Source: a virus
Taxonomy: Duplodnaviria > Heunggongvirae > Uroviricota > Caudoviricetes
Direction: 5' to 3' (one strand)
Virus record (IMG/VR): IMGVR_UViG_2695420708_000013
Span: 1-17,722 of that record
DNA length: 17,722 nt
The position numbers were made by a program, and so were the translations under genes. The notes under the pieces are model-generated. The model was not told where the DNA came from and ran no database searches. It saw nothing but the letters and a program-made list of their open reading frames with translations. Of the stretch, positions 8,610 through 17,722 are shown in pieces; positions within the stretch are counted from its first letter, which is position 1; every line of letters begins with the position of its first letter.

Positions 8610-8855
8610 TTTCTAGGCTTCCACCACCAGCACGACAAGATGCCGCATACAGTGACCCAGTCAGTCCAGTTTTCAGACAACCAGTGCGTCACCTTTTTGA
8701 AGGCGCTTTAAAGCACGTTTTAATCCAGGTCGGCCTGTCCTTGTTCCGCTTAATTTATCTTCAAATATTTGTTCATATCCTGCACAAACAAGAGCGTTTC
8801 GTTGCAGGTCTGTATTCTGGTCATTTGTTGATACCCTTACATAGCCAATCAGCAC
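8610..8855 (-). pseudogene. Decayed second copy of the serine invertase (N-terminal ~60 codons intact, then stops)
   Basis: ORF 8673..8873 encodes LIGYVRVSTNDQNTDLQRNALVCAGYEQIFEDKLSGTRTGRPGLKRALKRLQKGDALVV then TGA; further downstream reads KLD*LGHCMRHLVVLVVEA*, recognisably related to KLDRLGRSMKHLISLVGEL of the intact copy. Confidence 0.7.
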
Positions 8856-8961
8856 GCTGAATCTCCCGTCCAAAAGCGCAAATCATGCCATGCAGGCCGG
8901 AAACGGCCATTATCTAAAACCTCGGTTTACAGGAAACGGTAAACAAGGCTGGTAACGCCGT
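8666..8961. repeat. Direct repeat copy B (~296 bp) of the invertase 5' end plus crossover site
   Basis: See copy A; same orientation. Confidence 0.85.
8910..8935. other. Invertase crossover site, copy R1 (boundary of the invertible fibre segment)
   Basis: Identical 26-mer to 7711..7736; the alternative fibre reading frame runs straight through it (..[12 protein letters not shown]..). Confidence 0.78.
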
Positions 8962-9823
8962 TCAGCGTTCCGGCGATAAAATGACCGGAGAACTGAAAAT
9001 TGGCACGGTGAATGCGCTGCGAATTTTCAATGATACCTTCGGTCTAATTTTCCGTCGTTCAGAAGATTTTCTTCATTTCATTCCGACGGCTGAAGGACAA
9101 GGCGAAAACGGTAATATCGGCCCATTAAGGCCATTCGCTATAAATCTGAGAACAGGTGCTATATCTGTCAGCCACGGGGCCAAAATTAAAGGAGGTCTAG
9201 CTATTGGAGCTACTGATAACGCACTGGGTGAAAACTCCATTGTTCTGGGAGATAACGACACCGGATTTAGGCAAGATGGAGATGGTATTATTAGCTTCTA
9301 TTCAAATGGTTCGCGCATCGGACATATTGATGAGTTAGGATTACATCTTTATAAAGATATTGAATCTAATGGCAGCAATTTTAGATTAAAAAGTAATTAC
9401 CGCCACCACATTACATTCGCCAACGAAGACGGAAGAATTCGTATGTTTTTGTGGAAAGATAACGGTGGTGATGGTGTTCATATTAATAACGGTTCAGATG
9501 GTGGTGGTGATTTCATTTTTAAAACAGATGGGGGATTTGCGCTGGGAAGTGGTGCGCAAGTTGCGTCTAGTGGCGATATTTATGGTTCAGTGTGGGAAAA
9601 CAACTGGTTAAGCACATGGCTGCATAATCATGTCGTTCGGGATATTCGTCTTGGCAGCATTGAATATAAAAACGTATGGCGCGACTACGGCTTTGGCGAT
9701 GCGTCAGGTTATGTTTTAACAGCCGCAATTAACAGCAATGCGGATGATATTGTCGACACTGTTGCCAGAAGGCCAATTCAGAAATTGATTGGGGGAATAT
9801 GGTACAACGTGGGGAGTGTTTAA
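8936..9823 (+). CDS. Alternative tail-fibre C-terminal cassette (Hv'), silent in this orientation
   Basis: Frame is open from the crossover site ([20 protein letters not shown], then the ORF-track start M at 8981); no SD of its own; ends ...[15 protein letters not shown] like P2 gpH; Gly-rich beta-rich body typical of fibre tips. Confidence 0.75.
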
Positions 9824-9824
9824 G

Positions 9825-10352
9825 ATGATGCACCTGAAAAATATTAAGGCCGGGAATCCGAAAACACCGGAACAATACCAGCTAACTAAAAAAGCGGGCG
9901 TGGTATGGCTCTTTTGCGAAGATGGCAAAAACTGGTATGAGGAACAAAAGAATTTTCAGCCAGACACCATAAAAATTGCTTACGATGAGAACAACATCAT
10001 CGTTGCTGTCAGTAAAGACGTTTCAACTATTAATCCTGAAGGGCTAAGCATAGTTGAAGTTCCTGATATTACGGCAAATCGTCACGCAGACAATAACGGA
10101 AAATGGATGTTTCTGGATGGTAAAGTAGTAAAGAGGGAATATACAGAACAGGAACTGCAACAACAGGCCGAATCACAAAAGGCCGCATTGCTTTCCGAAG
10201 CTGAATCAGTCATCCAGCCGCTGGAACGCGCTGTCAGGCTGAATATGGCAACAGACGAGGAACGCACACGACTGGAAGCATGGGAACGCTACAGTGTTCT
10301 GGTCAGCCGTGTGGATACGGCAAATCCTGAATGGCCACAAAAGCCTGAATAA
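9825..10352 (+). CDS. Alternative tail-fibre assembly chaperone (gpG/Tfa-like), partner of Hv'
   Basis: Starts [14 protein letters not shown] 1 nt after the Hv' stop, with GGGGAG SD; paralogous to the opposite-strand tfa ([14 protein letters not shown]...PEQPE). ORF-track start 9789 is an upstream extension. Confidence 0.85.
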
Positions 10353-10357
10353 AAATT

Positions 10358-10377
10358 AAGGCCCGATAGCGGGCCTT
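10358..10377. terminator. Bidirectional hairpin between the two convergent fibre-assembly genes
   Basis: GGCCCG-ATAG-CGGGCC stem-loop flanked by A/T runs on both sides. Confidence 0.5.
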
Positions 10378-10380
10378 CTC

Positions 10381-10914
10381 TCATTCTGGTTGTTCGGGAA
10401 ACGTTACTGGCAGGCTGGAGGTGTCTGTGGATTCGACCTTCTGCGCATAGAGCATCCACTCGGTTAATTTTTGTTTATTCTCATCGGAAATGATGCCCAG
10501 CTGTAGCTGAGAGTCCCACAGCTGGGTTTTATCCCTGACGAGCTGCAGCAGGCTCTGCTTTTCATTTTCCGCTTGTTGCCTTTGCTCTTCCTCGGTATAA
10601 GTTCGCTTTATCACCGCACCATCTTTGAACATCCAGTTGCCCGAAATATCAGCCCGGCGATTTGCTGTAATATCAGGCAACTCAACGACACTTAAACCTT
10701 CTGGATTAATTGCTGATACATCCTTGTCTATAGCAATAATTATTCCCTCAACTGTGTAAGCCAGTTTTATTGTATCCTCCTGAAAGTTTTTTAATTCCTC
10801 ATGCCAATTTTTTCCATCTTCGGACCATAACCAGATAACATCAAAATTCTTTGTTAGCTGGTATTGTTCAACGGTTTTTGGATTACCTGCGACAATGTTT
10901 TTTAAATGCTGCAT
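10381..10914 (-). CDS. G: Tail-fibre assembly chaperone (P2 gpG-like), partner of the currently expressed fibre tip
   Basis: 177-aa ORF; N-terminal 100 aa conserved with the + strand paralog, C-terminal half divergent, as expected for fibre-specific chaperones. Confidence 0.88.
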
Positions 10915-10916
10915 GA

Positions 10917-11066
10917 TTATACCTGCGATACGTTATACCATGTTCCGTTAATTAACTTTTGTATTGGTCTGAATACTGCCGGATCATCACCATCGACTTC
11001 ACCGATAATACCAAGCCCCGTGATTACATGGCCTGATTTTTCATACATCACGCCTTTCTTCATGGT
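10917..11066 (-). other. Orphaned last 50 codons of the expressed fibre gene, separated from it by an in-frame TAG
   Basis: Reverse-complement translation in H frame: [49 protein letters not shown], matching the conserved P2 gpH C-terminal end as I recall it; stop TAA 2 nt before the tfa ATG. Confidence 0.65.
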
Positions 11067-12857
11067 CTAAACAACTCGTGTGCCAAGTCTGACATCTCTC
11101 ACATAGCGGGAATCAAAGTTACCGTAATCCGAGGGATTAACACGTCCCGTAATATTTATGGTTTTATTACTTTGAATGCTTCCGGAGACAAAGCGCATAA
11201 CATGGACGTTATTAGCATAAACATCCAGATTACCATCGCCTTTTTGTTTAAAGCCCGTGTCATTATCACCCAATACAATCGAATTACCGCCAAGAGCACT
11301 GGATGTTCCGATACCCAGTGCACCATTCAGTTGACCACCAGATAACGGCAGTGCACCAACATCTCCTGCTGAAGGTTTTCTGGTGGTGTAAAATTCGGAC
11401 CAGTCGGCTTCAAAACCATAACCATCACGGGCTGAACGATAAAAAATACCGCCATTTTTATAATTAATCCGAAACTGAGCTGCAGGACAACTTCCTTCTC
11501 CCATATAAAAATGAATAATTAACGTTGATGCACCACTAATAGTTGCGTTATAGGCTCCGCTACTCCAGTTCCATCCAACTGCTTTATCATTCGCAACGGT
11601 GCTTCCTGTTTTCCCTAAGGCAAACGCACCAACATGACTTGCTTTTAATGTGATATCGGAGGAACCATCAAAAGCCACATTGCTTATTTTCCTGGCAGTT
11701 TTTAATTTTGCAGCTGTAGAAGCATTGCCGGATAGTTCACCAGAAAGGCCACCGCTGAATGTTTGTCGATTAGTCCAGGTATTCGCTGTACTGAGTAACG
11801 GTATTTTCTCCCCGCTTGTGCCGAGTTCTCGTAAACCGAGGTATTCGATAACGGCAGCAACGGTCGATTTCGCAAGAATATCCCGCCCGACTTTTGTCAG
11901 GGTTGCCAGGCTGGCGACATCATTCCCCGTAAAATACGGAAACTTGCCTGCCGCAGTAGTAAGTCCGGCCAGCGCCGTCAGGGTGGCATCTTTCGGTTGC
12001 TTACCCGCAAGCGCGTTAGTCATGGTGGTCGCAAAATTCGGGTCGTTGCCCAGCGCCGCCGCCAGCTCGTTCAGTGTGTTCAGTGCATCAGGCGAAGAGT
12101 CTACAAGTGCGGCAATCGCAGCCATAACGAAAGCCGTGCTTGCGATTTGGGTATTATTCGTTCCCTGTCGCGCAGTTGGTGTTGTTGGCGTTCCGGTCAG
12201 TGCAGGACTATTTAAGGGCGCTTTCTTGTTCGTTTCACCCATTACCGCCTTAACCGCTTTTGGCGTTGCCGCCAGTGACTCGGAAGTGCTGTTGGTCGCA
12301 CTGCTGAGCTGTACTATCCCCTTTTTCGTCGTGCTCGCATCCTCCAGCGCCACGGCGGATGCAATATCCTCTGCCCGTTTTGCTGCTGTCTCGGCGCGCG
12401 TTGCCGCGGATTCAGCAGCAACTTTGCTCTGAGATGCAGCCGTCGCACTGCCTGCCGCCTCTGATGCTTTCGTTGTTGCTGTCGTGGCACTACCTTTCGC
12501 TGCTGACGCTTGTCTGGTCGCCTCATCTTTTGAAGCAGACGCAGATGATGCCGATGACGCCGCTGAACTGGCTGACGATGCGGCTGCTGCCTTAGAGGAA
12601 GCAGCATTGTCTGCTGAAGTCTTTGCATTTGTTTCAGAGGTTTTTGCTGCAGAAGCAGACCTCGCTGCTGCAGTGGCTTGCTCAGTGGCTTTGCCAGCCT
12701 TCGTTGTGGCTGTTGAAGCGGATGATGCGGCGCTTTCTGCCGATTTTCCGGCGGCGGTGGCACTGGCTGAGGCCTGCCCGGCACTTGTTGACGCGGCACT
12801 GGCAGATAATGCAGCCGCTGTTTTTGAACCTGCCGCAGAGTGGCATCTTTCGGTTGC
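11067..12857 (-). CDS. H: Tail fibre gpH-like, Ala/Ser/Thr-rich middle region plus variable C-terminal part (frame B)
   Basis: My own translation shows this frame open from 12857 to the TAG at 11067, reading Ala-rich repeats (..AAKTSETNAKTSADNAASSKAAAASS..) into KAPLNSPALTGTPTTPTARQGT...IEYLGLRELGTSGEK... The ORF track only reports it from an internal GTG at 12353. Confidence 0.7.
   Translation of the reverse strand, partial: ATERCHSAAGSKTAAALSASAASTSAGQASASATAAGKSAESAASSASTATTKAGKATEQATAAARSASAAKTSETNAKTSADNAASSKAAAASSASSAASSASSASASKDEATRQASAAKGSATTATTKASEAAGSATAASQSKVAAESAATRAETAAKRAEDIASAVALEDASTTKKGIVQLSSATNSTSESLAATPKAVKAVMGETNKKAPLNSPALTGTPTTPTARQGTNNTQIASTAFVMAAIAALVDSSPDALNTLNELAAALGNDPNFATTMTNALAGKQPKDATLTALAGLTTAAGKFPYFTGNDVASLATLTKVGRDILAKSTVAAVIEYLGLRELGTSGEKIPLLSTANTWTNRQTFSGGLSGELSGNASTAAKLKTARKISNVAFDGSSDITLKASHVGAFALGKTGSTVANDKAVGWNWSSGAYNATISGASTLIIHFYMGEGSCPAAQFRINYKNGGIFYRSARDGYGFEADWSEFYTTRKPSAGDVGALPLSGGQLNGALGIGTSSALGGNSIVLGDNDTGFKQKGDGNLDVYANNVHVMRFVSGSIQSNKTINITGRVNPSDYGNFDSRYVRDVRLGTRVV
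11826..11851. other. Invertase crossover site L, inverted relative to 7711 and 8910, inside gene H
   Basis: TTCTCGTAAACC-GA-GGTATTCGATAA; core GA is the complement of TC; encodes IEYLGLRE at the constant/variable junction of H. Confidence 0.78.
11983..12345. repeat. Internal direct repeat in H, copy 2 (~0.36 kb)
   Basis: Aligns to 12840..13200 at offset 857; both copies encode KAPLNSPALTGTPTTPTARQGTNNTQIASTAFVMAAIAALVDSSPDALNTLNELAAALGNDPNFATTMTNALAGKQPKDATL. Confidence 0.8.
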
Positions 12858-13708
12858 TTACCCGCAAGCGCGTTAGTCATGGTGGTCGCAAAATTCGGGT
12901 CGTTGCCCAGCGCCGCAGCCAGCTCGTTCAGCGTGTTCAGTGCATCAGGTGACGAATCTACAAGGGCGGCAATCGCAGCCATAACGAAAGCCGTGCTTGC
13001 GATTTGGGTATTATTCGTTCCCTGTCGCGCAGTTGGTGTTGTTGGCGTTCCGGTCAGTGCCGGGCTGTTTAATGGGGCTTTCTTGTTCGTTTCATCCATT
13101 ACTGCCTTAACGGCTTTTGGTGTCGCTGCCAGCGTTTCAGACGTGCTGTTGGTGGCGTTGCTGAGCTGGACAAGGCCTTTTGCGGTCAGCGAGGCGTCCG
13201 GGTGACGTCGTGACTGTTCATGCTCTTTCAGTTTGTCATCCACGTAATTCACTGTGGCCATCACCATGGTGTTATCCACGGTAAGCGCCACAGTGGCAGT
13301 GCTGGATACGGTCAGAATGGTGCGAAATGTTTGTGCACGTCCGGATCCTTCGGCAACGGTTGGCTTGTAACTTTCGGCAGTATTGCCTACCGCGATCAAA
13401 TCGCCGTGCTCATCAAACACACCAATTTCCCGGATCCAGAATCCGCCCGTTTCAGGAGGAATAACCAGCTCCGCAATAATGTGGTTCTGATGTGTTGCGT
13501 CCAGGGTGACGCGATTAACGGTATGTCGCCACACCTCATGCACAAGACGGGTCTGCTTACTGTCTGGCGTGGGTAAAGTACCGCCGCCGTCACCCACGGC
13601 CATATGTGTCAGGCGGACAGGTTTCCCATCTGGCGCGGTTGCCTGCGCTAATTTTTTTGCACCCGTATCGGTGATAATGGTTTTAAATTTTCGTGTTGTG
13701 GTACTCAT
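12836..13708 (-). CDS. H: Tail fibre gpH-like, N-terminal conserved part (frame A)
   Basis: MSTTTRKFKTIITDTGAKKLAQA...ELVIPPETGGFW...HEQSRRHPDASLTAKG... resembles P2 gpH N-terminus. After ...KQPKDATL the same frame continues as Gln/Arg/Pro-rich text to 12314, which I interpret as out-of-frame. Confidence 0.8.
12840..13200. repeat. Internal direct repeat in H, copy 1
   Basis: See copy 2. Confidence 0.8.
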
Positions 13709-13710
13709 GC

Positions 13711-14241
13711 TTAATCGTCCGGATAAATGGTAATGACTTCACCGTCGTAAGTTGCTGCTGCCGCGAAAATATCTCCCTGAATCTCCTGAATGATATTCAG
13801 CCCTGTCATGTGGCGGCTGACCGGGCGGGCATCAGCAATCAACCGCTCCATTTCCAGATACATTTCCTCCGTCACGCCACTGTCCAGCGTGCCAACATCA
13901 ATCTTGAATGTTCCGGGTTCGCCGTTGAACTCCCACCACTCAGACACGCGAATGAGGTATCCCAGCGGCTCAATGGCCCGTCGCAGGGCGCTGATGGTTC
14001 CTTTGTGTCGGTGTATCAGCCATGCATCACGAATCACCTGTCGCTTTGTCTCTTCCGGCCAGTTGCGATCCCAGCGGTCAACGGAAAACGCCCAGGCGAG
14101 ATAAGGCAGCAGATGCACCGGGCAGGTGTCCGGCGACCACAGCGTGTTGAGGTCTGCCGGAATGTCTGTAATGCGTGTTCCGACGGCTTCGGCACAACGC
14201 ATGAAATTGCTGGCTGATGGTGGTAACAGTGAATTACTCAT
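13711..14241 (-). CDS. I: Baseplate protein gpI-like
   Basis: WSPDTCPVHLLPYLAWAFSVDRWD and EMERLIADARPVSRH motifs; start ATG 14239-14241 (MSNSLLPP) just upstream of the J stop; ORF-track start 14274 is an extension. Confidence 0.87.
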   Translation of the reverse strand: MSNSLLPPSASNFMRCAEAVGTRITDIPADLNTLWSPDTCPVHLLPYLAWAFSVDRWDRNWPEETKRQVIRDAWLIHRHKGTISALRRAIEPLGYLIRVSEWWEFNGEPGTFKIDVGTLDSGVTEEMYLEMERLIADARPVSRHMTGLNIIQEIQGDIFAAAATYDGEVITIYPDD

Positions 14242-15130
14242 TACGCCCACCTTCGCTGATGGTGAATGACTCACAGCGCGCCGCCTGTATGTCGCTGATG
14301 GCCATATTCTGTGTGGGTTCGATTATCTCCACGCGTTGCACACCGTGCACATGCAGTGCGGCAGCAATGGCGGACAACGCCACGTCCTGACCGATAAGCC
14401 CCTGCTCAGCCAGCCACTTCCTGAACGACGATTCAGCCGCAGCCAGAATAGGTTCGGATTCCGGACCGGGGTAAAAGTACAGTTTTGCATTCAGCCGCCA
14501 TGTCACGATTCTGGCACTCTGTACGGTCAGGCGGTCGGCCACCGGGCGGGTATCCTCTGCATTCAGAACGGCGCGAACGGTATTAAGCAACGCCTCCGTT
14601 GCTGTGCCGTCGCCCTCAGTGGACAGGATGGAAACCGTCACATTTGCCGGAGACGGACTGATGGCCCGCGCATCGCGCACCAGACCGCTGGCGCTGCGGG
14701 CAAAATACTCGTATGCGCCTGACGGGCCTGCAACACTCAGGCCGTCATACGCCCGCTGCGCCCGCAGTCTCAGCGAGGTGTCGTTCTCCATCACCACGTC
14801 GGTGGTATCCGTTGCCGGAGTGATAACCAGGCGCTTTGTGTTCATATTGCCCGCGAGGTTGTCCAGGTCTGTTCCGGCGCTGTGGCTCAACATGCAGGCG
14901 CGTGCGGCCTCATTGACCCGCTGGCGTAACAGCATTTCACGAAACGACATGGTTTGAGCGATAACGTTCAGGGGTTCCGATTCCAGTTCCAGTGCGGCGG
15001 AGACGACTTCACGCTGTTCGGCGGGATAAGCTGCAATCATCATGGCCTTTGTGTCAGCCAGAATTGCCTCAAAGTCAGGCTCCGCGATGATGGCGGGTTC
15101 CGGTAACTGGGAAAGGTCAACGGCAGGCAT
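14234..15130 (-). CDS. J: Baseplate protein gpJ-like
   Basis: 298 aa, MPAVDLSQLPEP... N-terminus and RPVADRLTVQSA / YFYPGPESEPI motifs as in P2 gpJ. Confidence 0.9.
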   Translation of the reverse strand: MPAVDLSQLPEPAIIAEPDFEAILADTKAMMIAAYPAEQREVVSAALELESEPLNVIAQTMSFREMLLRQRVNEAARACMLSHSAGTDLDNLAGNMNTKRLVITPATDTTDVVMENDTSLRLRAQRAYDGLSVAGPSGAYEYFARSASGLVRDARAISPSPANVTVSILSTEGDGTATEALLNTVRAVLNAEDTRPVADRLTVQSARIVTWRLNAKLYFYPGPESEPILAAAESSFRKWLAEQGLIGQDVALSAIAAALHVHGVQRVEIIEPTQNMAISDIQAARCESFTISEGGRNE

Positions 15131-15133
15131 GAT

Positions 15134-15484
15134 TTACTCCCTCAGCGTGATGGTTAATTCAACATTCTGCATGGTCTGCATGACAGTGCCCGACAGCGTC
15201 ACCCCGGCGTGGCCTCCTGCCTTCCAGACAACGTCGATGGCGTTCAGGGCAATGCGTGGTTCCCATCGTGTCAGTGCAATCACGGTAGCACTCATGCATT
15301 GCAGACGCGTGGTGTTATTCATGGGTTCGTCAATCAAATCAGGCACAAGGCTGCCATATTCCCGTCGCATAACCCGGCTTGCCAGCGGGGTGGTCAGGAT
15401 GTCCCTGACTGACTGTTTCAGGTGCGCCATATCGTTCAGGTTTCCCGTCCCGTCCGGGTTCATTCCTGTGTAGCGGGTTGTCAC
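15134..15484 (-). CDS. W: Baseplate wedge protein gpW-like
   Basis: 116 aa, MTTRYTGMN..., gp25/W-like; overlaps gene V stop. Confidence 0.87.
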   Translation of the reverse strand: MTTRYTGMNPDGTGNLNDMAHLKQSVRDILTTPLASRVMRREYGSLVPDLIDEPMNNTTRLQCMSATVIALTRWEPRIALNAIDVVWKAGGHAGVTLSGTVMQTMQNVELTITLRE

Positions 15485-16062
15485 TGCGGGCCTCCTGTCG
15501 AATCGCTGCCACCTTTAACGCCACCGTGCTTATGCGTATGCACTGTGATGCCGTTTGAGGTGAAATCGCCGCCGCTGTGCGTGATATTGCCGCTCATCGT
15601 TCCCCCTTTTGTGACGTCAAGCGTCGCTGTTCTCAGAAGGTCTGTGCATTCCACGACAGGCGTGTTCAGTGTCACGCTGATGGATGCCTGCAAAGTGGCC
15701 GTTTTCATGCCGCTTGCGCTCAGTGCGCCTGCGTCCGCGTCGTAGCGGAACACCGCGCCGTCCGGCGCGCTGACCACGATTTCTTTCAGGCTTTTGCCGG
15801 GTGCCGGAATGGCATCACTCCACAGGCTGCCGATTATCATGGCGGTTTCCGGGTTGCCGCCGATGCAGGCAATTGCCACCTGTTCGCCTGGTGATGGCGG
15901 AAACCACACGTTGAAGTCTCCCGCGCGCGTGGTGTTCCAGCGCAGCCAGCCTGTTTCCAGTTCGCCGCTGCGAACGCGCACGCACCAGGATTCCTCATCA
16001 ACTTCAGAGATGATCCCGGTGCGGATGATATTGCTCAGCAGTCGCATGAGTTCTGCGCTCAT
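15481..16062 (-). CDS. V: Baseplate spike/assembly protein gpV-like
   Basis: 193 aa; C-terminal GGTMSGNITHSGGDFTSNGITVHTHKHGG motif characteristic of P2 gpV. Confidence 0.87.
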   Translation of the reverse strand: MSAELMRLLSNIIRTGIISEVDEESWCVRVRSGELETGWLRWNTTRAGDFNVWFPPSPGEQVAIACIGGNPETAMIIGSLWSDAIPAPGKSLKEIVVSAPDGAVFRYDADAGALSASGMKTATLQASISVTLNTPVVECTDLLRTATLDVTKGGTMSGNITHSGGDFTSNGITVHTHKHGGVKGGSDSTGGPQ

Positions 16063-16694
16063 CGTACAGCCTCCGCAATCCGGCCCAGCACCGTGTTATA
16101 AATCAGGCGCTCATCTGCCTGGCTGATACCCAGCAGCTCACGTACCGGGTAATCGGTGAAAATGCCCGGCGCAACCTGATCGCGCTCACCGAACTGATGA
16201 ACGCGTGCAATACGTGCGGCCACGCCGCTGTAACCCACCGTCACACCGGAAGCATCTGCACGGGCTTTCAGGTAGCGGGCGGTGCGCAGTTTTACGAACA
16301 TGGAGACGCGCCTGGTGCTGTCCTGGTTGATGCGCCGGGTGCGTATTTCCAGAAAACGGTCGATGTCATCCCGGTAAAACGTGCGGATATTGTTTTTATC
16401 CTCATCCCACCCGGTGATGGTTCGCCCGTATTTCCCCGTGTCGTGATGCCAGTTTTTCAGCGTGCGTGCTTCGTTATTCCAGATAAAGCGAATGCGCTCC
16501 TGTATCCGGGTTACGCGGCGTCTGCGTGGTGTCCATGCGGTCCCGTCCGGCGCTTTCTGTGACCGGATACGCGCCTGCTGGGCGCGGCGTAAATCCTGTG
16601 CCAGCTTTCTGGCGATGTTATTAATGGCCTGCTGATTCAGGCTGTCGCGGATAGCCTCAAAGGTTTCATCCACGCGGGTGAATGCCTTATCCAT
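16059..16694 (-). CDS. S: Tail completion / virion morphogenesis protein, gpS-like with an internal insertion
   Basis: C-terminal ARIARVHQFGERD...RELLGIS motif of the gpS family; about 60 residues longer than P2 gpS as I recall it. Confidence 0.7.
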   Translation of the reverse strand: MDKAFTRVDETFEAIRDSLNQQAINNIARKLAQDLRRAQQARIRSQKAPDGTAWTPRRRRVTRIQERIRFIWNNEARTLKNWHHDTGKYGRTITGWDEDKNNIRTFYRDDIDRFLEIRTRRINQDSTRRVSMFVKLRTARYLKARADASGVTVGYSGVAARIARVHQFGERDQVAPGIFTDYPVRELLGISQADERLIYNTVLGRIAEAVR

Positions 16695-17154
16695 CGCTTT
16701 CCCCCCACGTCACATCCTGGAATACATGCGACCAGTCGCCTTCGGAAGAGGGCAGGCGGGGTTTTGGCTCCGGCAGGTGTTCTGCCTGCGGTGTGCCCTG
16801 ACTGCTGCGCGTGATGCGAACGCGTTCCCGCAGGGGGAGCGTAAACAGGAGATCGGCGCTGTCATCGTCATTGATAACGGCGGAAAATTTGATGTCCTGA
16901 TTACGCTCCGGATTGAGCAACAACTGTGGCTGATTTTCGGATAACCACGCCAGCAGCGGCAGCGTGAGGTCGTCCAGCTCTCCGGCGTAATCCATGACAA
17001 ACATCACTATCTGATAGCGGTAAACAAACGATGGGGTTTCTCCGGTCGTTTCAATGTTGCCGCTCTCCACGAAAATGGTGAATTTTTCCGGGTTGGCATG
17101 ACACCACCGGCATGAACGGGTCATGGCTTCACGCAGGGAATCAGTTTTCAGCAT
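16687..17154 (-). CDS. R: Tail completion protein gpR-like
   Basis: 155 aa, MLKTDSLREAM... resembles P2 gpR; 4-nt overlap arrangement with neighbours. Confidence 0.85.
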   Translation of the reverse strand: MLKTDSLREAMTRSCRWCHANPEKFTIFVESGNIETTGETPSFVYRYQIVMFVMDYAGELDDLTLPLLAWLSENQPQLLLNPERNQDIKFSAVINDDDSADLLFTLPLRERVRITRSSQGTPQAEHLPEPKPRLPSSEGDWSHVFQDVTWGESDG

Positions 17155-17431
17155 GGTTGTTGTCCTCGTTGTTCAGTCGTTGCAGCCTGCGCTGTTCCAG
17201 TAATTCAATGGCCCGCTTATCGGCGTTACAGGTTTCCAGTGCGTCCATGAGGCTGTCGCTCCATATCCCGATGTTTCCCCATGATGGCGTCACCGGAAAC
17301 GGCGGGGGAAGTACGGGGGCGGTCAGCCCTTCCGGGATGAAACGGAACGACGGCGGCGGCGCGGACGCGTTCTGCGTGCTGGTGCAACCGCTCAGTAAAG
17401 CGAGCGTCAGGAACAGCGCGGGCACATGCAT
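17141..17431 (-). CDS. lysC: Rz1-like outer-membrane lipoprotein spanin (P2 LysC-like)
   Basis: Starts MHVPALFLTLALLSGC (signal peptide plus lipobox LSGC), Pro-rich mature part; begins inside lysB in another frame and runs past its end. ORF-track start 17461 is an extension. Confidence 0.6.
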   Translation of the reverse strand: MHVPALFLTLALLSGCTSTQNASAPPPSFRFIPEGLTAPVLPPPFPVTPSWGNIGIWSDSLMDALETCNADKRAIELLEQRRLQRLNNEDNNHAEN

Positions 17432-17678
17432 CTGTCGTGATATCGTTGCGTAGCTGTTCACGTCGGATTTCCCCTTCCTGTTGTCGGTTCTGGCGCGCTG
17501 TCATGACGTCACGCAGTACACCGGATGCGGTGCTGATGATGGTGCCGGCCTCTTTCAGGGTCCGGCTGTAATCGTCCAGTTGCGCCTGTGTATAACGGTT
17601 GTGTCCGTCTTCCTGCCCCAGTCTGAATGTCTGCCAGAGTGTTATGGTCAGCAGCGTGAGGACGGTCAGTGCCATCAT
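17226..17678 (-). CDS. lysB: Rz-like inner-membrane spanin (P2 LysB-like)
   Basis: N-terminal hydrophobic segment ALTVLTLLTITLW followed by charged, helix-prone periplasmic region; overlaps the lipoprotein ORF. Confidence 0.62.
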   Translation of the reverse strand: MMALTVLTLLTITLWQTFRLGQEDGHNRYTQAQLDDYSRTLKEAGTIISTASGVLRDVMTARQNRQQEGEIRREQLRNDITTDACARAVPDARFTERLHQHAERVRAAAVVPFHPGRADRPRTSPAVSGDAIMGKHRDMERQPHGRTGNL

Positions 17679-17722
17679 CAGGATGAGGTAGCCTGAGTTT
17701 AACGGACACTCCTTCCTGAAAT

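What the first reader, a model, noticed from the sequence alone, without database searches (positions are those of the whole stretch)
10917..11069. Second in-frame amber codon truncates the expressed fibre tip 50 codons before its natural end
After ...DVRLGTRVV the frame hits TAG (11067-11069) and then continues [49 protein letters not shown] to a TAA placed just before the tfa start. This tail resembles the conserved C-terminal end of P2-type fibres, so the TAG likely replaces a sense codon (possibly CAG). Together with the TAG in D, both premature stops in otherwise well-conserved structural genes are amber.
Basis: seen in the sequence. Interest (0 to 1): 0.5.

Follow-up and report, generated by a model that had tools for sequence, protein, structure and literature searches.

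The report
Inherited amber stop in cryptic-prophage fibre tip
The in-frame TAG is a real Gln-to-stop mutation, but it is an ordinary inherited defect in the tail-fibre tip of a decayed lambda-like prophage of Shigella sonnei, and it looks like a P2 fibre only because the window is a scaffold of three contigs.

Summary
On the minus strand a TAG lies at 11067-11069. The frame then runs 49 more codons to a TAA at 10917-10919, just before tfa. E. coli NCTC86 has CAG and phage P2 gpH has CAA (Gln) at this codon, so it is a C-to-T nonsense change.

- The window is contig CXAP01000091.1 of a draft assembly. The public record has N at 7763 and 12839, and the window shows A there.
- Those two positions are the exact borders of a 5.1-kb block that is 99.7% identical to the side-tail-fibre invertible module of a lambdoid prophage next to trpA in Shigella sonnei.
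- The flanks match the S. sonnei P2-like prophage at 99.9-99.99%. In seven other S. sonnei assemblies that prophage carries its own fibre module, with an intact fibre in six.
- All 20 S. sonnei places inspected carry the same TAG, always in the lambdoid prophage. That prophage is already broken: J is frameshifted, it has IS insertions, and its invertase is a 60-residue stump ending in TGA.

The TAG in gene D is a separate mutation private to this isolate. Two amber stops are expected by chance (P about 0.3). This is routine pseudogene decay.

The parts
11067..11069 (-). In-frame amber codon (CAG to TAG, Gln to stop) in the variable fibre-tip segment (Sv)
   Evidence: Searches give the sequence. 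One search shows CAG in NCTC86 and CAA in P2. One search shows TAG in 10 of 10 S. sonnei loci.
10917..11066 (-). The 49 codons plus TAA cut off by the amber codon. This is the conserved C-terminal end of the tip (...SGHVITG...[17 protein letters not shown]). Gene callers report it as a 48-residue ORF starting at the ancestral internal Met.
   Evidence: identical to NCTC86; motif shared by 7 intact tips. One search aligns it to the C-terminus of Mu S in 5YVQ. One search shows the ORF called in 2201 blocks.
11070..11825 (-). Upstream part of the variable tip (Sv) inside the invertible segment, open reading frame up to the TAG
   Evidence: gp37_C hit on the intact NCTC86 homologue.
11826..11851 (+). 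Crossover site at the right border of the invertible segment: TTCTCGTAAACCGAGGTATTCGATAA
   Evidence: 3 matches in the window against 0 expected. Searches show the orientation switching exactly here among genomes.
11852..12838 (-). Constant part (partial) of the lambdoid side tail fibre gene stf: an Ala/Ser-rich stretch plus a collar-like repeat. It ends at the scaffold gap.
   Evidence: It is 99.3-99.4% identical to S. sonnei lambdoid loci L007 and L012, and it is part of the 875-residue Stf of ATCC 29930.
12839..12839 (.). Scaffold gap: N in the public record, A in the window. It marks the border between the lambdoid block and the P2-like contig and creates the apparent frameshift in H.
12840..13708 (-). 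N-terminal part of the P2-like fibre gene H, from the S. sonnei P2-like prophage at pheT/ihfA
   Evidence: 99.86% to L017-L023. One search gives the Pfam Phage_tail_fib hit.
10381..10914 (-). tfa, the tail fibre assembly chaperone paired with the TAG-bearing tip
   Evidence: Caudo_TAP, E 4.8e-34. One search shows the exact protein in 4765 blocks.
9825..10352 (+). tfa', the chaperone of the alternative tip
   Evidence: Caudo_TAP.
8981..9823 (+). Alternative tip Sv', intact. When the segment is flipped it gives an intact 918-residue Stf.
   Evidence: (918-residue Stf in S. sonnei 53G).
8910..8935 (-). Crossover site at the left border of the invertible segment: TTCCTGTAAACCGAGGTTTTAGATAA
8673..8855 (-). 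Remnant of the lambdoid module's own serine invertase: 60 residues ending in a premature TGA (TGG to TGA)
   Evidence: One search gives the NCTC86 annotation 'recombinase family protein, incomplete'.
7806..8474 (+). Class I SAM-dependent methyltransferase gene carried in the lambdoid module
7763..7763 (.). Scaffold gap: N in the public record, A in the window. It marks the left border of the lambdoid block.
7711..7736 (-). Crossover site of the P2-like prophage's own invertible segment. The rest of that segment is missing from the window.
7069..7656 (-). Intact serine invertase (195 residues) of the P2-like prophage, a candidate to flip the lambdoid segment in trans
   Evidence: (Resolvase + HTH_7).
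926..928 (-). Amber codon in P2-like gene D (TGG to TAG), private to this isolate and unrelated in origin to the fibre TAG
   Evidence: One search shows it is the only difference in 7762 bases from L018/L020. One search finds it only in this contig and in a Logan assembly of run ERR024605.

Best explanation
The TAG is a fixed, inherited nonsense mutation (CAG to TAG, Gln to amber). It lies in one of the two alternative receptor-binding tips (Sv) of a side tail fibre gene (stf). That tip sits on an invertible segment of the Gin/Pin type in a decayed lambdoid prophage of Shigella sonnei, next to trpA.

When the segment is oriented as in this window, translation stops after residue 875 of a 925-residue fibre. 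The missing 50 residues are the best conserved part of this tip family and form the very end of the solved Mu S fibre. The truncated chain very probably cannot fold into a working tip or be handled by its Tfa chaperone (inferred). In the opposite orientation an intact 918-residue fibre is encoded.

The prophage is defective anyway, so the mutation is most simply neutral decay carried along clonally.

The tip appears to belong to a P2-type fibre only because the window is a scaffold. Two single-N gaps, shown as A in the window at 7763 and 12839, join the lambdoid block to two contigs of the S. sonnei P2-like prophage. That the scaffolder placed a paralogous contig there is an inference.

The amber codon in D is an independent, isolate-private TGG to TAG change. 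Two ambers is what GC-to-AT transitions are expected to give.
For: Sequence and homologues:
- TAG in frame, flanked on both sides by sequence homologous to intact fibres.
- Nine other tips or tip fragments read through this region. Six have Gln at this codon, and the three more divergent tips have another sense residue.

Inheritance:
- TAG in 10 of 10 loci found through tfa.
- It is present by construction in 10 further places, which include S. sonnei 53G and ATCC 29930 again.
- All of these lie next to trpA or lambdoid genes (J, lom, phage_tail_N).
- None of 5426 complete E. coli genomes has the TAG allele; the only 5 matches differ from the query at one base, and the one checked (NCTC86) has CAG.

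Scaffold:
- The public record has N at exactly 7763 and 12839.
- Window 1-7762 is 99.987% and 12832-17685 is 99.86% identical to the S. sonnei P2-like prophage, while 7763-12838 is 99.72% identical to the lambdoid module.
- The joins are abrupt, with no shared sequence.
- The P2-like prophage carries its own fibre module in all seven other assemblies, with an intact 656- or 678-residue H in six; in L020 H is called in two pieces.
- The chimeric 464-residue ORF exists in only one contig of the whole collection.

Invertible segment:
- Three crossover sites against 0 expected.
- Both orientations occur among genomes.

Prophage decay:
- J is frameshifted.
- IS elements are present and the constant part is deleted in many loci.
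- The invertase remnant ends in TGA.

Importance of the tail:
- It aligns to residues 424-502 of the 504-residue Mu S chain in 5YVQ.
- Tfa proteins bind and fold the distal C-terminal region of the fibre (PMC9608196).

Amber coincidence:
- 57% of nonsense-creating transitions in the window's genes give TAG, so P(both amber) = 0.33.
Against: - No reads were available, so the scaffold-artefact reading of the two N joins is an inference. A scaffolder needs read pairs to link contigs, and the two prophages share 297 bp at 97% and about 340 bp at 93% identity near the joins. Those repeats could also support real recombination.
- Loss of function of the truncated tip is inferred from conservation and from the homologous Mu structure. 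It was not tested.
- Absence of an amber suppressor in the host genome could not be checked beyond the window and seven flanking loci.
Confidence: 0.88

Rival explanations
1. The window is a true recombinant. In this isolate the lambdoid stf/invertible module has physically replaced the native fibre module of the P2-like prophage, so the TAG-bearing tip really sits behind P2-like gene H.
For: The scaffolder linked the three contigs, which normally needs several read pairs. The two prophages share homologous stretches near both joins: 297 bp at 97% and about 340-480 bp at 92-95%. Both also carry the same kind of crossover sites, so recombinase-mediated or homologous exchange is conceivable.
Against: - Both borders are N in the public record.
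- The joins lie outside the homologous stretches and share no sequence.
- The right join is out of frame.
- A true junction of unique sequences would have assembled without a gap.
- No other contig among thousands of S. sonnei assemblies has this arrangement.
- Even if it were true, the TAG would still be the inherited lambdoid allele and the fibre would be doubly broken.
Confidence: 0.1
2. The TAG is decoded at a useful level, by a host amber suppressor tRNA or by leaky termination. The full-length tip would then still be made, and amber codons would be tolerated in prophage structural genes of this strain.
For: Two amber codons sit in structural genes of one window. The 49 codons after the TAG are undamaged and identical to the intact NCTC86 version.
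Against: - The intact downstream codons are explained by the youth of the mutation: the DNA after the TAG is identical to NCTC86.
- The two ambers have different ages and lie in different prophages.
- The expected share of amber among transition nonsense changes is 57%.
- The same module also has a premature TGA, and the same prophage has a frameshifted J, which a suppressor would not rescue.
- No tRNA gene lies in the window, and none of the three found in seven flanking loci is a suppressor.
Confidence: 0.02
3. The gene is naturally split. The 48-residue ORF after the TAG would be a separate small gene, translated by re-initiation at the ATG two codons after the stop, and its product would complete the tip in trans.
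For: An ATG lies 3 bases after the TAG. Gene callers report the 48-residue ORF in 2201 blocks.
Against: - The ATG is an ancestral internal Met, also present in P2 gpH (VVQLMARGG) and in NCTC86.
- No Shine-Dalgarno sequence lies at a proper distance.
- The split is found only in the S. sonnei clone. All diverged homologues are continuous.
- The ORF has no Pfam family of its own.
Confidence: 0.02
4. The T at this codon is a sequencing or assembly error in this draft contig.
For: The window comes from a short-read draft assembly.
Against: The same TAG occurs at 20 other places, including several complete chromosomes.
Confidence: 0.005

Closest known systems
Invertible tail-fibre switches of phage Mu (G segment, Gin), P1 (C segment, Cin) and the e14 element (P region, Pin)
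   Same: A constant fibre part is joined to one of two opposed variable tips, each with its own tfa-type chaperone. The segment is flanked by inverted 26-bp crossover sites and served by a serine invertase. Both orientations are seen among genomes. The tip is homologous to Mu S and S' (5YVQ, 8JU3). The G(+)/G(-) switch of Mu is described in PMC11915804.
   Different: Here the module sits at the end of a lambdoid stf gene in a defective prophage. Its own invertase is a 60-residue stump, so inversion must depend on another invertase such as the P2-like prophage's (inferred). One of the two tips carries a nonsense codon. The likeness of the sites to the Mu gix sequence is recalled from memory and was not tested against Mu DNA.
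Phage P2 gpH / gpG (tail fibre and its assembly protein)
   Same: The last ~70 residues are clearly homologous (GNFDSRYVKDVRLGTRVVQLM...[31 protein letters not shown]), and the gene is followed directly by a tfa/G gene.
   Different: In all other S. sonnei genomes examined, the TAG-bearing tip is attached to a lambda-Stf-type N-terminus (phage_tail_N), not to a gpH N-terminus. In the window the link to the gpH-like N-terminus is an N gap.
Laboratory lambda (lambda PaPa) stf frameshift, which removes the side tail fibres (Hendrix and Duda 1992, listed as reference 18 in PMC9608196; content from my own knowledge)
   Same: A single small mutation in stf truncates the side tail fibre of a lambdoid phage.
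   Different: That case is a frameshift in a viable phage with a measurable adsorption phenotype. This is a nonsense codon in one of two switchable tips of a prophage that is already defective.
Prophage pseudogene decay in Shigella
   Same: The same prophage carries IS insertions, deletions, a frameshifted J, a truncated invertase and this nonsense codon.
   Different: Nothing that sets this case apart was found.

Membership tests
Nonsense-mutated (pseudogenised) tail-fibre tip of the Mu S / P2 gpH / lambda Stf tip family | Homologues carry a sense codon where this sequence has a stop | tested here: met
   CAG in NCTC86 and CAA in P2. Gln in 4 further partial E. coli proteins aligned at this position (P0001-P0004), plus P0005, whose tail is nearly identical to P2 gpH.
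Nonsense-mutated (pseudogenised) tail-fibre tip of the Mu S / P2 gpH / lambda Stf tip family | The frame after the stop still encodes the homologous C-terminal end | tested here: met
   The 49 residues are identical to NCTC86. The motif is shared with 7 intact tips and with Mu S in 5YVQ.
Nonsense-mutated (pseudogenised) tail-fibre tip of the Mu S / P2 gpH / lambda Stf tip family | The stop is reproducible in independent assemblies, so it is not an error | tested here: met
   Found at 20 other places, several of them in complete chromosomes.
Nonsense-mutated (pseudogenised) tail-fibre tip of the Mu S / P2 gpH / lambda Stf tip family | The truncated product is non-functional | not testable with these tools
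   Inferred from conservation of the missing 50 residues and from their place at the end of the solved Mu S fibre. No assay was possible.
Gin/Cin/Pin/Hin-type invertible tail-fibre segment | Serine invertase with Resolvase and HTH_7 domains nearby | tested here: met
   7069-7656 is intact (195 residues; Resolvase E 1.5e-50, HTH_7 E 1.8e-13) but lies on the P2-like contig. The module's own copy is a 60-residue remnant.
Gin/Cin/Pin/Hin-type invertible tail-fibre segment | Inverted ~26-bp crossover sites at the segment borders | tested here: met
   8910-8935 (-) and 11826-11851 (+). There are 3 sites in the window against 0 expected in 200 shuffles.
Gin/Cin/Pin/Hin-type invertible tail-fibre segment | Two opposed tip-plus-chaperone cassettes | tested here: met
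   Sv-tfa on the minus strand and Sv'-tfa' on the plus strand.
Gin/Cin/Pin/Hin-type invertible tail-fibre segment | Both orientations occur in nature | tested here: met
   The constant part is joined to Sv in ATCC 29930 (L013 and L033 are the same place) and in L014, L029, L030. It is joined to Sv' in L007, L012, L015, L026, L028, L032.
   They are joined through an N gap at 12839 and are out of frame if read literally.
   In seven other assemblies (L017-L023) the P2-like prophage has a different fibre module of its own, intact in six and split in L020. The TAG tip is always in the lambdoid prophage by trpA.
Suppressor-dependent or programmed-readthrough gene | The stop codon is conserved across diverged lineages | tested here: not met
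   It was found only in the near-identical S. sonnei copies. E. coli and phage homologues have Gln codons.
Suppressor-dependent or programmed-readthrough gene | A suppressor tRNA or a readthrough signal is present | tested here: inconclusive
   No tRNA lies in the window. Only ordinary Arg and Met tRNAs lie in seven flanking loci. The rest of the genome could not be scanned.

The most novel reading that the evidence does not exclude
The amber-bearing tip might be kept as one arm of a phase-variable switch. Inversion would toggle the cryptic prophage's side tail fibre between an intact 918-residue form and a form that is off, or made only at a low readthrough level. Some host benefit would hold both arms in the S. 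sonnei population. Alternatively, the isolate might really carry a P2-like/lambdoid hybrid fibre locus created by exchange between two resident prophages.
Probability: 0.03. Interest if true: 0.35.

Novelty: already known. Interest (0 to 1): 0.07.

Why it matters
It matters little biologically. It is one more inactivating point mutation in a cryptic prophage of a species known for gene decay.

The practical value is a warning about method. Single-N scaffold gaps that are silently turned into a base can create apparent chimeric genes, frameshifts and false co-occurrence patterns, such as 'two amber codons in one prophage'. Paralogous fibre modules of co-resident prophages are easy to mis-scaffold.

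Tried and rejected
- An exact-pattern scan of genome contigs for the 35-mer around the codon (Y at the variable base) found nothing. The tip type is evidently absent from the species-representative genomes, so the source was identified through exact-protein look-ups instead.
- The 55-mer query meant to force a match across the variable base still returned one-mismatch hits. It remains useful: no E. coli genome matched exactly, so none has the TAG allele.
- A homologue search with the 48-residue tail returned only 9 short partial proteins. It did not survey long fibres. The six fragments that reach the stop position read through it, five with Gln.
- A paper search for ERR024605, CXAP01 and the assembly accession gave no hit, and my extra term 'ERS' swamped the list. 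North and Davidson 2021 (PMC7811200) is not held.
- I first read the break at about 12838 as an illegitimate recombination junction with microhomology. I dropped this when the public record showed N at that position.
- I first took ORFs at 7053-7501 (+) for fragments of D. They are only antisense ORFs over the invertase gene; D lies at 191-1300 (-).
- An amber-specific pattern was rejected on three grounds: the mutation-spectrum count, the opal stop in the invertase remnant, and the frameshifted J.
Full report
**1. The observation**

On the minus strand the sequence reads GGC ACA CGA GTT GTT TAG ACC ATG AAG..., with TAG at 11067-11069. In this frame there is no stop for 589 codons upstream, back to 12836. 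After the TAG the frame continues for 49 codons (T, then [48 protein letters not shown]) to a TAA at 10917-10919. The tfa gene starts at 10914.

The intact fibre of E. coli NCTC86 is identical over these 49 residues and has CAG (Gln) at the stop position. Phage P2 gpH has CAA (Gln) there and a clearly homologous tail. The product lacks 50 residues.

**2. Where the window comes from**

An exact-protein look-up shows that the window is the whole of contig CXAP01000091.1 (17,722 bp) of draft assembly GCA_001260795.1. Neighbouring CX.. accessions are S. sonnei draft genomes of Holt et al. 2012 (PMC5447701).

Comparing the window base by base with the public record gives two differences. The record has N at 7763 and at 12839, where the window shows A. 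These are exactly the borders of a foreign block.
- Window 1-7762 is 99.987% identical (one mismatch) to a P2-like prophage at pheT/ihfA in S. sonnei 53G (HE616528.1) and other S. sonnei assemblies. Window 12832-17685 is 99.86% identical to the same prophage.
- Window 7763-12838 is 99.72% identical to a different place in S. sonnei. This is the side-tail-fibre module of a lambdoid prophage next to trpA, for example in ATCC 29930 (CP026802.1; identity confirmed in PMC9430107).
- In 53G the two prophages lie about 0.5 Mb apart.
- The joins are abrupt, with no shared sequence at either border.
- The chimeric 464-residue ORF that the right join creates is found in one contig only in the whole public collection.
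- In all seven other S. sonnei assemblies the P2-like prophage has its own fibre module. Gene H is intact at 656 or 678 residues in six of them and is called in two pieces in L020.

I conclude that the window is a scaffold of three contigs. The link between the P2-like H N-terminus and the TAG-bearing tip, including the apparent frameshift after ...KQPKDATL, is a scaffold join and not a gene. That the scaffolder picked a paralogous contig is an inference. A true recombinant is not excluded, and I give it about 0.1.

**3. What the TAG-bearing gene is**

In S. sonnei the tip is the end of a lambda-Stf-type fibre, with an N-terminal phage_tail_N domain, downstream of J and lom. The tip lies on an invertible segment, window 8910-11851.
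- The segment is bordered by inverted 26-bp sites, TTCCTGTAAACCGAGGTTTTAGATAA and TTCTCGTAAACCGAGGTATTCGATAA. With a third copy at the P2-like invertase, the window has 3 matches against 0 expected.
- The segment holds two opposed cassettes: Sv-tfa (with the TAG) and Sv'-tfa'.
- Both orientations occur among S. sonnei genomes. With Sv joined to the constant part, the fibre stops at 875 of 925 residues (ATCC 29930). With Sv' joined, it is an intact 918-residue protein (53G).
- The module's own invertase is a 60-residue stump ending in TGA where the intact P2-like copy has TGG. The intact 195-residue invertase of the P2-like prophage may do the flipping in trans. This last point is inferred.

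**4. Is the TAG an error, a polymorphism or fixed?**

All 10 loci retrieved through the neighbouring tfa protein, a route unbiased with respect to the stop, have TAG. The 48-residue ORF after the stop is called in 2201 blocks of the collection, and the 10 places shown are all in the lambdoid prophage by trpA. None of 5426 complete E. coli genomes has the TAG allele. Five (the NCTC86 group) have this tip type, each differing from the query at one base, and the one checked (NCTC86) has CAG. The DNA after the stop is still identical to NCTC86. The mutation is therefore young, real and clonally inherited in S. sonnei.

**5. Consequence**

The missing 50 residues carry the motif shared by every intact tip compared...RLG...SG(H/Y)V(I/L)TG...RP(I/V)QK.I.G.WYNV... 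The comparison set was P2 gpH, E. coli T28R, both native S. sonnei P2-like tips, Sv' and NCTC86. Partial E. coli proteins carry the same motif. None of these ends at this position.

The region aligns with residues 424-502 of the 504-residue Mu S chain in crystal structure 5YVQ, and with Mu S' in 8JU3. Tfa chaperones bind and fold the distal C-terminal part of the fibre (PMC9608196, citing North et al. 2019). Loss of the tail should therefore prevent correct folding of the tip. This is inferred, not tested.

The prophage is defective in any case. J is broken by a frameshift, with TAA and TGA stops following. Many genomes also have IS insertions or have lost the constant part of stf.

**6. The 'two ambers' idea**

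- D (191-1300, minus strand) has TGG to TAG at 926-928. The base at 927 is the only difference from other S. sonnei copies in 7762 bases.
- The truncated D product is found only in this contig and in an independent Logan assembly of run ERR024605. It is therefore real but private to this isolate.
- The two ambers thus differ in age. Unless the scaffold is a true recombinant, they also lie in different prophages.
- Both are GC-to-AT transitions. Over the window's coding sequences, 210 of 366 (57%) nonsense-creating transitions give TAG, so two ambers have probability about 0.33.
- The window also has a premature TGA.
- No tRNA gene is present in the window, and none with a suppressor anticodon was found in seven flanking loci.

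**7. The small-ORF alternative**

The ATG two codons after the TAG is an ancestral internal Met, also present in P2 gpH and NCTC86. It has no well-placed ribosome-binding site. The split occurs only in the S. sonnei clone. Nothing supports a separate gene.

**8. Comparison with known systems, and verdict**

The architecture is that of the Mu G, P1 C and e14 P invertible fibre switches, appended to a lambdoid stf. The defect is an ordinary nonsense mutation in a cryptic prophage, comparable in kind to the stf frameshift of laboratory lambda. Nothing here is new in kind. The most useful result is that the apparent P2-type chimeric fibre, and its frameshift, come from two N gaps written as A.

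Noticed in passing
window 7763 and 12839: The public record of this contig has N at these two positions, and the window shows A. They are the exact borders between P2-like and lambdoid sequence, so the window is a three-contig scaffold. The apparent frameshift in fibre gene H is a join, not a mutation.
   Followed up: yes
window 926-928 (gene D, minus strand): An amber codon (TGG to TAG) in the P2-like D gene is the only difference from other S. sonnei copies in 7762 bases. It is reproduced in a Logan assembly of run ERR024605, so it is a real mutation private to this isolate.
   Followed up: yes
window 191-7033 compared with P2 gene order: The FI-FII-E-T-U block is on the opposite strand to V-W-J-I-H-G and to D, whereas in P2 all run one way. 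D starts 157 bp from FI and diverges from it. The same layout is seen in S. sonnei and in about 159 complete E. coli genomes, so it looks like the normal order of this prophage group. No extra crossover site was found near FI.
   Followed up: partly
window 8673-8855 (minus strand): This is a remnant of a second serine invertase: 60 residues, then a premature TGA where the intact copy at 7069-7656 has TGG, followed by diverged sequence. The lambdoid segment still flips among genomes, which implies that an invertase acts in trans.
   Followed up: partly
window 7806-8474 (plus strand): A 222-residue class I SAM-dependent methyltransferase gene sits between old tfa and invertase remnants in the lambdoid fibre module. 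It is also present in E. coli NCTC86. Its function is unknown.
   Followed up: no
L028 and L029 (both from UGZB01000001.1, GCA_900457235.1): The same long contig carries the fibre module near both of its ends, once in each orientation. This suggests an overlap of a circular assembly built from a culture that held both orientations.
   Followed up: no
L013 3241-6402 (S. sonnei ATCC 29930 lambdoid prophage): The tail-tip gene J is called in two pieces (503 and 513 residues) because of a frameshifted stretch ending in TAA and TGA. This is another sign that the prophage is defective.
   Followed up: partly
window 11979-12278 and 12836-13135: A 300-bp direct repeat at 93% identity encodes the same collar-like fibre domain (APLNSPALTG...KQPKDATL) in the lambdoid stf and in the P2-like H. 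Together with the 297-bp repeat at 7466-7762 / 8665-8961 (97%), it is a likely cause of scaffolding confusion and a possible substrate for exchange between the prophages.
   Followed up: partly
L020 9927-11897 (S. sonnei assembly GCA_902502785.1): In this assembly the native P2-like fibre gene H is called in two pieces (377 and 247 residues). This may be a separate defect or an inversion intermediate.
   Followed up: no
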